Shown piece after piece: positions 5,113-44,873 of a stretch of 64,000 bases of DNA. The position numbers and the translations under genes were made by a program. The notes under the pieces are model-generated. The model saw only the letters and a list, made by a program, of their open reading frames with translations, did no database searches and was not told the origin of the DNA. Source of the DNA: Alphaproteobacteria bacterium. Its GTDB lineage: Bacteria; Pseudomonadota; Alphaproteobacteria; GCA-2731375. Location of the stretch: NCBI GenBank assembly GCA_965225945.1, contig CBDDBZ010000032.1, positions 192,001-256,000 of the forward strand, in the 5' to 3' direction. Within the stretch, counting starts at the first letter, position 1. Each line of letters starts with the position of its first letter.

Positions 5113-5871
5113 ATGAAAATCGGCGACAACAGACCACTCGGCAGTCCCAGCGCGGCCCGCACGGGCGCGCGGGACGCCGCGCGCGCTTACGCCGGCACGG
5201 AAGCCTCCGCGCCGCGCGCGACGGAAGACAGCACCACCATTCTCGGCATTCCCGAGTCGGAACTGACGCCCAAGGTGCGCGAGGCGATCATGAAATTGAT
5301 GCACGAAGTGGAGACACTTCGTCGCGAGCTCGATCGCACCCATGAGCGCCTGAATCACATGGAGAAGCTGGCCGATCTGGACCCCCTGGCACCGATCGCC
5401 AATCGGCGCGCCTTCGTGCGCGAACTCACCCGCGCGATTTCCTTCGCCGAACGCAATCAGAGCCCGCCGAGCTTGGTTTATTTCGACGTCAACGGCTTCA
5501 AGGCGATCAACGACAATTACGGCCACGCGGCGGGCGACAAGGCGTTATTGCACGTGGCGAGCGTCCTGCTGGAGCGGGTGCGCGAATCGGACGTCGTCGG
5601 TCGCTTGGGCGGCGACGAGTTCGGTGTCATCCTGGCCCAGACGAGTGAGACGCGCGCGCGCGAAAAAGCCCAGACGAGTGAGACGCGCGCGCGCGAAAAA
5701 GCGATGCAACTGGCCGAGGCGATCGAAAACGAACCGGTGGCGTGGGAAGGCACCGATCTGCTGATAAAGGTCGCCTACGGGATCACCACCTTTCAGGGCG
5801 GAGAAGATGCCCTGGCGGCGGCCGACCGGGAGATGTACGAGCGCAAGGCCAGCATGAAATCCGAGGGCTGA
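5113..5871 (+). CDS. GGDEF diguanylate cyclase with N-terminal coiled coil
   Basis: [31 protein letters not shown]-site and RLGGDEF. Confidence 0.92.
5635..5700 (+). repeat. perfect 33-bp in-frame tandem duplication ([11 protein letters not shown] x2)
   Basis: gcccagacgagtgagacgcgcgcgcgcgaaaaa at 5635-5667 and 5668-5700. Confidence 0.95.
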
Positions 5872-5964
5872 ATTCTCGGCCCGGCCCGGCGTGAGCCCGA
5901 GTCATGGCGACGGCCCCGGCGGGGGACGTCCGGACCGCTCCGCTCATTGGTGCACCCTTTGATC

Positions 5965-6240
5965 GGTGAGCGTTGCGAATCGGCGTACCGTGCACCATCC
6001 GAGCGTCCGCCGCGACGGCCTGCTCCGCTTGCCGCTCGCCGGCCAGGGGGAGACCCGCCGCGCGGCGGTGCACCACCCGAGCGTCCGCCGCGACGGCCTG
6101 CTCCGCTTGCCGCTCGCCGGCCAGGGGGAGACCCGCCGCGCGGCGGCCGGGAGCGTTGAACGGACCACAGGGTGTTGCGCCAAGGCCTCTCGGCCAGAGC
6201 GCCGGTCAATGAGCGATCCGCGCAGGCTCCCAGCTCGGGA
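5965..6240 (+). ncRNA. putative IS110 bridge RNA with two target-binding loops and one donor-binding loop (ends approximate)
   Basis: GCTCCGCT (6022-29, 6100-07) equals left target 5937-44; AGGGGGAGAC (6045-54, 6123-32) is the revcomp of right junction 7494-7503; CACAGGGTGT (6166-75) equals donor 7486-95; CAATGAGCG (6207-15) is the revcomp of left junction 5941-49. Confidence 0.82.
5990..6145 (+). repeat. 78-bp tandem duplication (1 mismatch) in the IS110 left end
   Basis: Units 5990-6067 and 6068-6145 differ only at caccaTcc/caccaCcc. Confidence 0.95.
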
Positions 6241-6270
6241 CAACTTATCGCAATCGAGGAGGTAGGGAAC

Positions 6271-7485
6271 ATGGGATATTGTGTGGGAATAGATTGGGGT
6301 GGCCTCGCACATGCCGTTTGCGTCGTCGACGACGCAAACGGCATGTGCGTCGAAAATTTCGAGGTGGCCCACGGCGCCGCCGGGATAGCCGAGCTGCTCG
6401 CCCGCCTGGCCCGCATCGCGCCGCCGGAGGAAATGCCGATCGCCATCGAGCGACCTTCCGGCCTGCTGGTCGAGAGCTTGATCGAGGCCGGCCATCCGGT
6501 GATCCCGATCCACCCCAACGTCGTCAAGGCCTGCCGCCCGCGCTACCGCGCCGCCGGCGGCAAAAGCGATCCGGGCGATGCCTACATGATCGCCGATATC
6601 CTGCGAACCGATGGCCATCGCTTCCGCGCCCTCACACCGTGCTCCGACGAGATCGAGGCCTTGAGCGCTCTGGTCCGCACCCGCGACGACCTGGTCGCCA
6701 AGCGCGTCGCCATCGCCAATCAGCTGCGCGGCCTGCTCGACGGCTTCTGGCCCGGCGCCGGCGCCGTCTTCGCCGATATCGACAGCAAGATCGCGCTCGC
6801 CTTCCTCGAACGCTATCCCACCCCCGACAGCGCCCGGAGCCTCGGCGAGAAACGCCTGGCCGCTTTCCTCGCCCGAAACCACTACAGCGGCGGCCGGAGC
6901 CCCCGCCAGCTGCTCGATCGCCTCGGGGCCGCCGCCCGCGGACGCGCCGGCCCCGCCGAAGTCGAGATGAAAGGCGAACTGGTGCGTGCCCTCGTCGCCG
7001 TCCTCCGCCCGCTGGTCGAGCGCCTCGGTGAACTCAGCCGACGCCTCGAGCGAGAGGTCGCCGCGCTTCCCGATGGACGGATCATCATGTCCTTTCCCCG
7101 CGCCGGCCGTGTCTGCGCGGCTCAGATCCTGGCCGAACTCGGTGACGTCAGGGAACGATACCTCTCCGCCGATCACCTCGCCGCCGAGGCCGGCGCCTGC
7201 CCCGTCACTCACGCGTCCGGAAAATCCAGGGGCGTCAAATTCCGATGGGCCTGCAATCATCGCCTGAGGCGCGCGATCACGACCTTCGCCGATAACTCCA
7301 GGCACGAATCCCAGTGGGCACAAGACATCTATCTCGCCGCCAAGAAGCGCGGATGTCGCCACGCCCATGCCATCAGAATCCTCGCCCGCGCGTGGATCAG
7401 GGTCATCTGGAGAGCATGGACCGACGGAAAACCCTACGACCCGCAAAAACATCGAGCCGCAATGCGCGCCACCGAGATAGGTTGA
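6271..7485 (+). CDS. IS110 family transposase/recombinase
   Basis: RuvC-like DEDD: GIDWG, AIERP, KSDPGDA; C-terminal AGACPVTHASGK with the conserved Ser; RBS GAGGAGG. Confidence 0.95.
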   Translation: MGYCVGIDWGGLAHAVCVVDDANGMCVENFEVAHGAAGIAELLARLARIAPPEEMPIAIERPSGLLVESLIEAGHPVIPIHPNVVKACRPRYRAAGGKSDPGDAYMIADILRTDGHRFRALTPCSDEIEALSALVRTRDDLVAKRVAIANQLRGLLDGFWPGAGAVFADIDSKIALAFLERYPTPDSARSLGEKRLAAFLARNHYSGGRSPRQLLDRLGAAARGRAGPAEVEMKGELVRALVAVLRPLVERLGELSRRLEREVAALPDGRIIMSFPRAGRVCAAQILAELGDVRERYLSADHLAAEAGACPVTHASGKSRGVKFRWACNHRLRRAITTFADNSRHESQWAQDIYLAAKKRGCRHAHAIRILARAWIRVIWRAWTDGKPYDPQKHRAAMRATEIG

Positions 7486-7497
7486 CACAGGGTGTCT
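7482..7497 (+). promoter_or_regulatory. -35 box (TTGACA) at the IS110 right end; forms a junction promoter on circularisation
   Basis: Circle junction would read TTGACA-cagggtgtctcattggtg(18 nt)-CACCCT; established IS110 behaviour, the -10 assignment is inference. Confidence 0.6.
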
Positions 7498-7590
7498 CCC
7501 CCTCCGGGCCGCCCGGAAAAGCTCCCCTCAATGGGTGGCCCGGAGGGGTCCCGGAGGGGGAGCGGAGCGGCCGAGACTTATGTCCATCGC
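7498..7590. repeat. remainder of a REP-like palindromic element targeted by IS110 (left arm begins about 5900-5944)
   Basis: Rejoined ccgctccgctccccctccggg is the inverse complement of cccggagggggagcggagcgg (7550-7570). Confidence 0.7.
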
Positions 7591-8813
7591 CACAGTACAC
7601 GACTCGTTCATGCTGGCTTTGGCCTGGGCACCTGGACTGGTGGTTTTCCGGGGACGAGGAAACGAATCAGCTCAATGGCTTGACGCCTGTCGATAGGATT
7701 GACGAGCTGTCGCCTTATCCACTCGAAACCGTATCGGAAGATGGATTTTGCCATCCTTTTGTGGGTTTTGAGGCGGATCGGCTCGGCCTCGTGGAGCCAA
7801 TCGCCGACTTTGTGCGCCCAGCAGAAGGTGATGGAAAGGACGGCGGTGAGCTTGGAGATGCGCTCCGGGTCGGTCATGTGGGTGTCTTCGAGGTTGAAGC
7901 CACGGGTTTTCAAGGCGGCGAAGAGGGTCTCGATTTGCCAGCGCTGGGCGTAGATGGCCAAGGCCTCCTCGGGCGCGTCGTTGGTCACGACGATCAACAG
8001 TTCGCCGGTCTTGAGATGGAGCGCGGCGACGAAGACGGGCCTGGCCTTGGGTTTTCTGGCCTCCGAGAGGCGCCTGGCGTTGGAGAGGATGCGGCTTTCC
8101 CCGGGTTTGAGGTCGCGAAACAGCTCCCTCGCCTTGACCATGCGACCACGCGTGTTGGCGATCTTGATGTTGGATCGGATGCGGATGTGAAAGGGGATGG
8201 CCTTTTCCTGCAACCATGCCAGCCAGGCGTCGCCGATGAATTCCCGGTCGGCCAGGAGGCTGGCGATCTTGTCGACCCCGAAGAGCCGGAGGACGTGTTC
8301 GAGGATCGCGATCCGCTCCTTGGTATTGGAATTGCCCGCCTTGTCGAGCACCCGCCAGCACACGGGAATGGCGATGGCGCGGTTGACGATGCCGATCATC
8401 AAGATGTTGACGTCGCGGCGACCCAGCCGCCAGTTGGTCCGGTCCATGGTCAGCCGCCACGGCCCCGCCTGGAGCCCCATCATCGCGACCAGGAACTCGG
8501 CGAGGCGATCGTAATCGAAATCGACTTGCTCGAAAAACCGTTGCAGGCGCCGATAGTTGGAGCTGGATCGCGCGCGCCCCGGAAAGTGGCAGGCCAAGTG
8601 AGAGAGGTTCACCGTCCGGGCGACGAACACGCCGAAGACCAAGACGCAAAGGCTCTCCAGACGGCTCTTGCGAAAGGCGAAGCCGCATCGTAGCGTCTCA
8701 CGCAGGGCGTTGATCGGGTTGTCTCGCATGATTTCCCTCTTGACTCGTCGTGGAGTGAATCGGGAATCCTACAACCTTTTCAACGTCCTACGTAAATGCC
8801 GTCGTGTACCATG
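7591..8813 (-). mobile_element. IS4-family element copy 1 (1223 bp)
   Basis: Ends CACAGTACACGAC / GTCGTGTACCATG; 9-bp target duplication GTCCATCGC (7582-90, 8814-22). Confidence 0.93.
7608..8729 (-). CDS. IS4 family DDE transposase
   Basis: MDRTNW, LLADREF, YAQRWQIETLFAALK (YREK motif). Confidence 0.95.
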   Translation of the reverse strand: MRDNPINALRETLRCGFAFRKSRLESLCVLVFGVFVARTVNLSHLACHFPGRARSSSNYRRLQRFFEQVDFDYDRLAEFLVAMMGLQAGPWRLTMDRTNWRLGRRDVNILMIGIVNRAIAIPVCWRVLDKAGNSNTKERIAILEHVLRLFGVDKIASLLADREFIGDAWLAWLQEKAIPFHIRIRSNIKIANTRGRMVKARELFRDLKPGESRILSNARRLSEARKPKARPVFVAALHLKTGELLIVVTNDAPEEALAIYAQRWQIETLFAALKTRGFNLEDTHMTDPERISKLTAVLSITFCWAHKVGDWLHEAEPIRLKTHKRMAKSIFRYGFEWIRRQLVNPIDRRQAIELIRFLVPGKPPVQVPRPKPA

Positions 8814-8824
8814 GTCCATCGCTA

Positions 8825-39312: not shown

Positions 39313-39352
39313 TCTTTTCGCCTCATACTGGCTCTTTTCGTCTCATACTGGC
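39313..39352. repeat. 20-bp tandem duplication in the glnD leader
   Basis: tcttttcgcctcatactggc / tcttttcgtctcatactggc. Confidence 0.85.
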
Positions 39353-44768: not shown

Positions 44769-44826
44769 CTTCCGATCGCGTCGATTCGACGGCGCGGCTT
44801 CCGATCGCGTCGATTCGACGGCGCGG
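44769..44826. repeat. perfect 29-bp tandem duplication
   Basis: cttccgatcgcgtcgattcgacggcgcgg x2. Confidence 0.9.
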
Positions 44827-44873
44827 CGGCCGCGACGCCGGCTACGTGCTCGACCGCCCGCTCCGGGCGCAGA

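What the first reader, a model, noticed from the sequence alone, without database searches (positions are those of the whole stretch)
5937..7503. Complete target, donor and handshake guide code readable from one IS110 insertion
Seen: removing the element gives target GCTCCG-CT-CCCCCT, and circularising it gives donor CACAGGGTGT-CT-CATTG. The left end contains matches to all four halves. The two right guides also extend 2 nt to match the post-recombination junctions: AGGGGGAG-AC with GT-CTCCCCCT, and CAATGAG-CG with CG-CTCATTG. Established: this is the pattern of the IS621 handshake guides that favour strand exchange. The recombinase keeps DEDD and the Tnp Ser. Inference: a probably active bridge system with a donor sequence unlike that of IS621, so potentially orthogonal for engineering.
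Basis: partly seen in the sequence, partly recalled or inferred. Interest (0 to 1): 0.72.

Follow-up and report, generated by a model that had tools for sequence, protein, structure and literature searches.

The report
Bridge-RNA insertion sequence, duplicated target loop
This is an ordinary member of the known IS110 family of RNA-guided jumping genes whose target and donor code can indeed be read from this one insertion; its only oddity is that the part of the guide RNA that reads the target is present twice.

Summary
A 1,553-bp IS110-group element (5945-7497) sits between CT cores, and its left end carries all four guides in the IS621 strand scheme. Both 2-nt handshake extensions fit only the post-exchange junctions. 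Chance does not explain this: 0 of 200,000 random left ends held all four words. Orthologs at 41-71% identity change guides and flanks together. The true guide-flank pairing beat all other 40,319 permutations, and 17 of 27 RNA pairs covary.

The recombinase has D8/E60/D100/D103 and S316. Its model matches IS621 and ISCro4 best.

The genome's second, decayed copy lacks it, as do contigs of three public runs.

A further insertion seen in two runs lies at a related target that is empty in this genome. The family was therefore mobile recently and keeps its target preference.

Whether this copy is active is not shown. The argument for orthogonality from donor sequence is weak, because IS621 donors are reprogrammable. 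Verdict: a new member of a known kind, of modest interest.

The parts
5937..5942 (+). left target half (LT, last 6 nt; handshake bases CG at 5941-5942)
5943..5944 (+). CT core, left copy
5945..6270 (+). left end (326 nt) encoding the bridge RNA; starts with right donor half CATTG (5945-5949)
5965..5996 (+). predicted 5' stem-loop of the bridge RNA
   Evidence: MFE folds, (prediction only)
5990..6067 (+). tandem unit 1 (78 nt): linker + complete target-binding loop; LTG GCTCCGCT 6022-6029, RTG AGGGGGAG 6045-6052, handshake AC 6053-6054; carries T at 5998
6068..6145 (+). tandem unit 2 (78 nt): second complete target-binding loop; LTG 6100-6107, RTG 6123-6130, handshake AC 6131-6132
   Evidence: absent as a second unit from own copy 2 and from contigs of runs X2, X4, X9
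6147..6233 (+). donor-binding loop: LDG CACAGGGTGT 6166-6175, RDG CAATGAG 6207-6213, handshake CG 6214-6215
6271..7485 (+). bridge recombinase gene, 404 aa (D8, E60, D100, D103, S316); GGAGG Shine-Dalgarno-like motif upstream
7482..7487 (+). TTGACA, candidate -35 box of the circle-junction promoter (overlaps the stop codon), 8 nt before the core
   Evidence: same position in 9 of 9 elements
7486..7495 (+). left donor half (LD; handshake bases GT at 7494-7495)
7496..7497 (+). CT core, right copy
7498..7503 (+). right target half (RT)
7554..7567 (-). unoccupied twin of the 14-nt target in the opposite arm of the palindrome; the only other exact copy in the genome

Best explanation
Window 5945-7497 is a complete insertion sequence of the IS110 group of the IS110 family. 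It encodes a DEDD/Ser bridge recombinase and, in its long left end, a bridge RNA. Inferred by analogy with IS621: the excised circle joins the right end to the left end. That join places a conserved TTGACA upstream of the left end, from which the bridge RNA is made. One internal loop of the RNA (LTG GCUCCGCU, RTG AGGGGGAG) reads the target GCTCCG-CT-CCCCCT on both strands. The other loop (LDG CACAGGGUGU, RDG CAAUGAG) reads the circle junction CACAGGGTGT-CT-CATTG. After top-strand cleavage at the CT cores, the dinucleotides AC and CG next to the right guides pair with the incoming partner strand (donor GT, target CG) and favour strand exchange. Shown here: the sequence matches, their covariation across orthologs, the RNA scaffold, the catalytic residues and fold, and a strain-polymorphic second insertion at a related target. 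Not shown: RNA expression, circle formation or recombination. In this genome's copy, the segment holding the whole target-binding loop is tandemly duplicated, so the RNA would carry two identical target loops and one donor loop. In IS621, separate target- and donor-loop molecules support recombination and the two loops of one synapse come from different RNA molecules. I therefore expect the duplication to be tolerated rather than inactivating, at about 55:45.
For: Matches and chance control: (0 of 200,000 random left ends hold all four words). Orthologs: 16 loci; 13 left ends were aligned. RNAalifold gives two stem + internal-loop modules, with 17 of 27 pairs showing compensatory changes. Guides change with flanks: RDG CAATGAG with CATTG versus CAGTGAG with CACTG; LDG GGGTG / GGAAG / GGACG / GGGCT with the same letters in the right end; target-loop handshake AC with donor GT versus TT with donor TA. 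For the 8 elements with both flanks, cognate guide-flank scores average 9.5 of 14 against 5.3 for 56 non-cognate pairs, and only the true assignment reaches the observed sum among 40,320 permutations. Protein: Pfam DEDD_Tnp_IS110 9.3e-33 and Transposase_20 5.5e-15. D8, E60, D100, D103 and S316 are invariant in 26 of 26 aligned homologs. ISCro4 aligns KTDAVD to KSDPGD and YESGSS to HASGKS. The AlphaFold model (pLDDT 85.9) has IS621 and ISCro4 chains as all ten top PDB hits, E 3e-12 to 3e-11, TM 0.63-0.70. Mobility and specificity: a contig end in runs X2 and X4 continues from the right end (...CT-CCCC) into sequence that lies at G000:C38:311028-311051. There this genome has the empty site CCACCCCG-CT-CCCC-ACCGG. 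The LTG can pair with all 9 positions there if G-T/U-G wobbles count, and the RTG has 6 contiguous matches. The decayed second copy has left flank TACCCCG-TT, pairable at 8 of 9. Mechanistic rules: passages of PMC11208158 and of bioRxiv 10.1101/2025.05.14.653916.
Against: There is no direct evidence of activity. No circle-junction or empty-site joint for the window's own site appeared in contigs of 4 runs, although contigs cannot show rare forms. The consensus scan finds 0 sigma-70-like promoters in 5700-7700. The best -10 candidates at the computed junction are weak (CACCCT at spacer 18). This genome has only one full copy. The perfect twin target 57 nt downstream is unoccupied. The duplicated target loop is unique among the 13 aligned left ends and could disturb folding or stoichiometry. 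Not all orthologs fit. L025 and L028 match poorly on the right target half (4 and 5 of 9). The Pseudonocardia-type elements L030 and L023 match poorly on the left half (5 and 6 of 9), and L026 reaches only 5 of 9 on the left. Handshake position 7 of the target is G in every element seen, so the donor-loop handshake is consistent but shows no covariation here. Rfam has no matching family. phmmer finds no IS621 chain and only a weak ISCro4 match (E 3.8e-5).
Confidence: 0.85

Rival explanations
1. The element type is right, but this particular copy is disabled. The 78-nt duplication, together with the 3-nt difference at its end relative to the single-unit form, spoils the bridge RNA, so the copy is stranded.
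For: The duplication is absent from own copy 2, from 11 orthologous left ends and from contigs of X2, X4 and X9, which read ...GGT-C-GCCGGG where the window reads ...GGCCGGG. This genome has one full copy, whereas X2/X4 show a further right junction. The twin target is unoccupied.
Against: Both loops are intact and predicted to fold separately. In IS621, separate TBL and DBL molecules support recombination, and the two loops of one synapse come from different RNA molecules (PMC11208158 passages). The recombinase frame is intact with all catalytic residues.
Confidence: 0.4
2. The tandem duplication is an assembly artefact and the real element has one target-binding loop.
For: All four laid runs read C at 5998, and three show the one-unit joint. 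The window holds other perfect two-copy tandem duplications at 5635-5702, 39313-39352 and 44769-44827.
Against: The two units differ by one base, and the end of unit 2 differs from the one-unit form by 3 nt. A collapse or expansion error would not create that. The assembly carries 48 full-length hits of a 1.2-kb IS inside contigs, which suggests reads long enough to span 156 nt (inference). The laid runs also differ from the window by 9 nt after 5805, so they are other strains.
Confidence: 0.2
3. The guide matches are chance, or merely reflect the terminal sequences being repeated inside the element without any RNA role.
For: GC-rich short words are common. LTG and RTG are partly self-complementary.
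Against: 0 of 200,000 random left ends hold all four words. Guides and flanks covary across orthologs. The scaffold shows compensatory pairs.
Confidence: 0.01
4. It is an IS1111-group (seekRNA-type) element with the guide RNA in the right end.
For: Same protein family.
Against: The right end is only 12 nt after the stop codon, and the guides lie in the 326-nt left end. Durrant et al. place the RNA in the left end for the IS110 group and in the right end for the IS1111 group (PMC11208160 passages).
Confidence: 0.01

Closest known systems
IS621 (E. coli) bridge recombinase and bridge RNA
   Same: Long left end with 5' stem-loop, target-binding loop and donor-binding loop. Left guides in the sense of the top strand, right guides complementary to it. 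CT core. 2-nt handshake guides directly 3' of RTG and RDG. A 7+2+5 donor flanked by a 3-bp inverted repeat (here CAC...GTG). -35 box in the right end. DEDD + Ser. Predicted fold (PMC11208158 and PMC11208160 passages).
   Different: Only 19-21% identity in the structural alignment, and no phmmer match. 404 aa against 305-319 residues in the solved IS621 chains. RTG of 8 nt instead of IS621's natural 4. Contiguous RDG. A unique intergenic palindrome as target rather than a many-copy REP. Duplicated target loop in this copy.
ISCro4 / IS622 (Citrobacter rodentium)
   Same: The only PDB sequence match (9t56, E 3.8e-5), aligning the D-x-x-D and SG motifs; same fold.
   Different: About 20% identity. 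ISCro4 is the ortholog engineered for human cells (bioRxiv 10.1101/2025.05.14.653916 passages). Nothing is known about the activity of the present clade.
Unnamed IS110-family elements of Alphaproteobacteria (Acetobacteraceae MAG contig L020, metagenome contig L024; Mesorhizobium plasmid pMLa element, L038)
   Same: 59-71% identical recombinases with the same RNA scaffold. The donor end TTGACACAGGGTGT-CT is identical in L020, L024 and L026. More than 120 protein clusters at 67-98% identity, some named 'IS110 family transposase' by their sources.
   Different: Different target guides and flanks (for example RTG CGCATGAG with flank CT-CATGCG in L024). None has the tandem duplication.
ISPpu10 (Pseudomonas putida)
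   Same: An IS110 element whose target carries a GC-rich stem-loop that adds specificity (abstract only, bioRxiv 10.64898/2026.03.19.712850). Here the target lies in one arm of a long GC-rich hairpin.
   Different: The second site seen here (C38) shows no obvious palindrome in the 201 bases read. No test of a role for target structure was possible.

Membership tests
IS110 family, IS110 group (bridge recombinase + bridge RNA) | RuvC-like DEDD domain with the four acidic residues | tested here: met
   PF01548 at 9.3e-33. D8, E60, D100, D103 invariant in 10 of 10 and 26 of 26 aligned sequences. D100/D103 align to the ISCro4 D-x-x-D.
IS110 family, IS110 group (bridge recombinase + bridge RNA) | C-terminal Tnp domain with the nucleophilic Ser | tested here: met
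   PF02371 at 5.5e-15. S316 in HASGKS aligns to the ISCro4 ESGSS and is invariant in 26 of 26. Among the 10 more distant sequences, L030 has Thr and L023 is frameshifted. The equivalence to IS621 S241 rests on a residue-count offset plus the paper's numbering, not on a direct alignment.
IS110 family, IS110 group (bridge recombinase + bridge RNA) | Fold like the solved bridge recombinases | tested here: met
   Foldseek top 10 hits are all IS621 (8wt9, 8wt6) or ISCro4 (9t56), E 3e-12 to 3e-11, TM (target) 0.63-0.70. Model pLDDT 85.9, but low at 96-100 and 312-326, the two catalytic loops.
IS110 family, IS110 group (bridge recombinase + bridge RNA) | Long left end, short right end, no terminal inverted repeats, dinucleotide core at both junctions | tested here: met
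   Left end 326 nt (about 250 without the extra unit), right end 12 nt, CT at 5943-5944 and 7496-7497.
IS110 family, IS110 group (bridge recombinase + bridge RNA) | Left-end RNA with two stem/internal-loop modules kept by covariation | tested here: met
   RNAalifold on 13 left ends: 27 pairs, 17 with compensatory changes. The single-sequence fold is not significant on its own (z -1.7 and -1.3). No Rfam family matched.
IS110 family, IS110 group (bridge recombinase + bridge RNA) | [quoted passage not shown] | tested here: met
   (1 of 40,320 permutations reaches the cognate score). Exceptions: right half in L025 and L028; left half in L026, L030 and L023.
IS110 family, IS110 group (bridge recombinase + bridge RNA) | Handshake guides that pair with positions 6-7 of the non-cognate DNA after strand exchange | tested here: met
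   Window: AC with donor GT and CG with target CG, 2 of 2 each, and neither pairs with its own DNA. Target-loop handshake position 7 covaries (A with T, T with A) across clades. Donor-loop handshake position 7 is always C with G, so it is uninformative. Position 6 is matched in only part of the orthologs.
IS110 family, IS110 group (bridge recombinase + bridge RNA) | [quoted passage not shown] | tested here: inconclusive
   TTGACA lies exactly 8 nt before the core in 9 of 9 elements. The -10 candidates are weak in the window (CACCCT, spacer 18) and better in L025 (TATTCT, spacer 17). No RNA 5' end data.
IS110 family, IS110 group (bridge recombinase + bridge RNA) | Circular intermediate and RNA-dependent recombination | not testable with these tools
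   Only indirect evidence: an insertion present in runs X2/X4 at a site that is empty in this genome.
IS1111 group (guide RNA in the right end, long subterminal inverted repeats) | Long right end holding the RNA; 7-17-bp subterminal inverted repeats | tested here: not met
   Right end of 12 nt. Only a 3-bp CAC...GTG repeat flanks the 14-nt donor. Definition from PMC11208160 passages.

The most novel reading that the evidence does not exclude
The two-loop left end is a working natural variant: a bridge RNA with two tandem target-binding loops and one donor-binding loop. Duplication followed by divergence of one loop would be a simple natural route by which an IS110 element gains a second target specificity without losing the first. 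It would also be a ready-made design for multi-target bridge RNAs. At present the two loops carry identical guides.
Probability: 0.1. Interest if true: 0.55.

Novelty: new member of a known kind. Interest (0 to 1): 0.3.

Why it matters
It gives one more fully decoded bridge system, from a large alphaproteobacterial clade only about 20% identical to IS621 and ISCro4. Target, donor, guides and handshake are all defined. Natural evidence, one polymorphic insertion and one old copy, shows that the guide code predicts where the element lands, wobble pairs included. That makes it a usable candidate for ortholog screens, but thousands of such elements are already catalogued and the mechanism is established. 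The duplicated target-binding loop is the only feature I have not seen described. The one search made for it returned 7 papers, judged from titles and abstract starts only.

Tried and rejected
Rfam scan of 5800-7700 at E<=1: no family.

DNA search in 60 relatives found only short spurious hits. Protein searches in 32 other genomes of the order (E<=1e-100) and 400 other genomes of the class (E<=1e-90) found no close homolog, with only 4 candidates scored per genome in the class search. The element is therefore not shared with the sampled kin.

The plasmid collection gave 3 records that are one and the same insertion (Mesorhizobium). Its ends look decayed: the RDG-predicted left junction was not found and the right end differs from the LDG. 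I left it out of the flank counts.

REP hypothesis: the 14-nt target occurs only twice in the genome (its own palindrome), and the right flank has no multi-copy relatives. The many 17-19-nt hits are the end of the neighbouring IS4-like element, which starts at 7591. The target is therefore neither a high-copy REP nor the end of that IS.

X9 left flank: a contig joins other sequence to the window at 5934, and I first read this as a further insertion site. Its right flank is the window's own (7498-7590), and the other sequence is not in this genome. It may be a different insertion 10 nt upstream, so I do not count it.

Depth ratios of Logan contigs hint at more copies in X2/X4. Contig depth is not a copy number, so I do not rely on it.

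RNA run X17 has contigs over 5806-6069 and 7280-7457. DNA carry-over cannot be excluded, so I do not claim expression.

phmmer against the PDB did not find IS621 even at E<=10; the fold search did.

Supplements were not requested; Durrant's supplementary tables of IS110 elements might already list this clade.

Ten rows were left out of the 8-element permutation test: L020, L021, L022, L029, L033 and own copy 2 (one flank missing or cut); L031, L032, L034 and L035 (partial genes, not analysed).
Full report
OBSERVATION. The left junction is GCTCCG-CT-CATTG (5937-5949) and the right junction is CACAGGGTGT-CT-CCCCCT (7486-7503). Taking the element out gives the target GCTCCG-CT-CCCCCT. Closing it into a circle gives the donor CACAGGGTGT-CT-CATTG.

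Inside the left end lie four guide words:
- GCTCCGCT at 6022 and 6100, same sense as left target + core;
- AGGGGGAG+AC at 6045 and 6123, the reverse complement of GT-CT-CCCCCT;
- CACAGGGTGT at 6166;
- CAATGAG+CG at 6207, the reverse complement of CG-CT-CATTG.

In 200,000 first-order Markov versions of the left end, the four core words occurred singly in 1.7%, 0.97%, 0.008% and 0.77% of cases and never together.

ANATOMY. The element spans 5945-7497 (1,553 bp). It has a 326-nt left end, a 404-aa gene (6271-7485) preceded by GGAGG, and a right end of only 12 nt.

The strand scheme is the one solved for IS621. LTG and LDG read the bottom strand, RTG and RDG read the top strand, and the handshake dinucleotides sit directly 3' of RTG and RDG (passages of PMC11208158). 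Target positions 6-7 (CG) and donor positions 6-7 (GT) differ. Each handshake guide therefore mismatches its own DNA and pairs only with the partner after exchange. This is the arrangement that bioRxiv 10.1101/2025.05.14.653916 requires when choosing sites (passages).

The 14-nt donor (7+2+5) is flanked by CAC...GTG, a 3-bp inverted repeat like the short STIR that Durrant et al. describe (output; PMC11208160 passages).

ORTHOLOGS. Scans of genome and metagenome contigs gave 16 loci at 33-71% protein identity. Thirteen left ends align on a conserved scaffold. RNAalifold finds two stem/internal-loop modules, and 17 of 27 pairs carry compensatory changes.

The guide columns vary and follow the flanks:
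- RDG CAATGAG goes with CATTG, and CAGTGAG with CACTG.
- LDG GGGTG/GGAAG/GGACG/GGGCT goes with the same letters in the right end.
- RTG CGCATGAG goes with the flank CT-CATGCG in L024, GACGGAG with CT-CCGTC in L027, and CGGCATGAG with CT-CATGCCG (9 of 9) in L030.
- The target-loop handshake is AC where the donor ends in GT, and TT where it ends in TA.

For the 8 elements with both flanks, cognate scores average 9.5 of 14 against 5.3 for the 56 non-cognate pairs. Only the true assignment reaches the observed total among all 40,320 permutations.

Not everything fits. L025 and L028 match poorly on the right half. L026, L030 and L023 match poorly on the left half. This may reflect half-matched insertions of the kind reported for IS621 (abstract only, bioRxiv 10.64898/2026.08.31.748434), or decay. 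The donor-loop handshake position 7 is C opposite G everywhere, so it is consistent but uninformative.

PROTEIN. Pfam finds DEDD_Tnp_IS110 and Transposase_20. D8, E60, D100, D103 and S316 are invariant in 26 of 26 homologs. Among more distant loci, one has Thr at the Ser position and one is frameshifted.

Sequence search of the PDB finds only ISCro4, weakly (E 3.8e-5). That match aligns the D-x-x-D and SG motifs. The AlphaFold model (pLDDT 85.9; low at the two catalytic loops) has IS621 and ISCro4 as its ten best structural matches, at 19-21% identity.

More than 120 protein clusters at 67-98% identity exist in public data. Their sources call them 'transposase' or 'IS110 family transposase'. 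No close homolog was found in 32 other genomes of the order or in 400 other genomes of the class.

THE DUPLICATION. Each unit holds a complete target-binding loop: stem, LTG, inner hairpin, RTG and handshake. The RNA of this copy would therefore have a 5' stem-loop, two identical target loops and one donor loop.

The genome's second copy has one unit (G000:C5, locus L002). That copy has ACG in place of the start codon, is cut after about 58 codons by an IS1595-like element, and is 98% identical. All 11 orthologous left ends also have one unit. Contigs of runs X2, X4 and X9 show a one-unit form that reads ...GGT-C-GCCGGG, as in copy 2, and all four laid runs read C at 5998.

The one-base difference between units, and the 3-nt difference at the end, argue for a real strain-specific event rather than an assembly slip. 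I could not lay the best holder to prove it.

In IS621, separate target-loop and donor-loop RNAs support recombination, and the two loops of a synapse come from different RNA molecules (PMC11208158 passages). An extra target loop therefore need not be harmful. This is inference.

OTHER COPIES AND MOBILITY. Runs X2, X4 and X17 carry the same left junction as the window; X2 and X4 also carry the same right junction. In addition, X2 and X4 have a contig that runs from the right end through CT-CCCC into other sequence. That sequence lies at G000:C38:311028-311051. There this genome has the uninterrupted site CCACCCCG-CT-CCCC-ACCGG.

The shared stretch is 6 nt, too short for a k-mer chimera. It is therefore an insertion present in those strains and absent here, or the reverse through precise excision.

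The LTG (UGCUCCGCU) can pair with all nine positions of CACCCCGCT if three wobble pairs count. The RTG has six contiguous matches. Copy 2 has the left flank TACCCCG-TT, pairable at 8 of 9 with a TT core; such cores are tolerated by IS621 (PMC11208158 passages).

TARGET CONTEXT. The site lies 72 nt after a GGDEF gene, in the left arm of a long GC-rich palindrome with 21-bp perfect arms. The other arm holds the only other exact copy of the 14-nt target in the genome (7554-7567, minus strand), and it is unoccupied. The palindrome is not a multi-copy REP, and it is not part of the neighbouring 1,224-bp IS4-like element, which starts at 7591 and has 48 full-length hits in the genome. A role for target hairpins has been reported for ISPpu10 (abstract only).

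PROMOTER. TTGACA sits exactly 8 nt before the core in 9 of 9 elements and overlaps the stop codon here. The -10 candidates at the computed junction are weak (CACCCT at spacer 18). The linear locus has no consensus promoter or terminator. The IS621-like junction promoter is thus plausible but not shown.

COMPARISON AND VERDICT. Every defining sequence feature of an IS110-group bridge system that I could test is met. Activity and the junction promoter remain untested. Bridge RNAs were predicted in 85.7% of catalogued IS110 elements, and covariation was shown on thousands of RNA-target pairs (PMC11208160 passages). This is therefore a new member of a known kind.

The orthogonality argument from donor sequence does not hold, because donors are programmable in IS621. 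Orthogonality of protein and RNA scaffold is likely at about 20% identity but untested. The duplicated target loop is a small curiosity worth one experiment.

LIMITS. All run data are contigs, which cannot show rare circles, RNA ends or absence. IS621 residue numbers come from the paper; their mapping to this protein goes through ISCro4 and motif alignment.

Noticed in passing
window 7591-8814 (transposase gene 7608-8729, minus strand): A 1,224-bp IS4-like element (Pfam DDE_Tnp_1) begins 94 nt after the IS110 element. The genome holds 48 full-length hits (>=1,200 nt, mostly 99-100% identical) plus fragments, an unusually large recent expansion. In metagenome run X9 the same right flank continues without it.
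   Followed up: partly
window 5635-5702 (inside the GGDEF gene 5113-5871): A perfect 33-nt in-frame tandem duplication (protein repeat [11 protein letters not shown] x2) lies 290 nt upstream of the 78-nt duplication. Further perfect two-copy duplications lie at 44769-44827 (29 nt) and 39313-39352 (20 nt, 95%). This strain or assembly seems prone to short tandem duplications.
   Followed up: no
window 5805/5806: Contigs of all four laid runs carry 9 extra nucleotides (in frame) in the GGDEF gene relative to the window, so the public strains differ from this genome by small indels.
   Followed up: no
L002 (G000:C5), locus coordinates about 1500-440 on the minus strand: The second, decayed IS110 copy is cut after about codon 58 by an IS1595/ISXO2-like element whose transposase frame itself contains stops. 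This is nested IS decay.
   Followed up: no
L030 and L021 (Pseudonocardia-type contigs): Two loci carry the same element with identical left ends and the same right flank start (CT-CATGCC, a 9 of 9 or 8 of 8 RTG match) but unrelated left flanks that do not match the LTG. Their recombinase has Thr where the others have the catalytic Ser.
   Followed up: partly
G000:C38:311028-311090 (L040): The site that is occupied in runs X2/X4 and empty here lies in the 5' part of, or just upstream of, an open frame with an amidohydrolase-like DSHHHLWD motif (label recalled, not tested).
   Followed up: no
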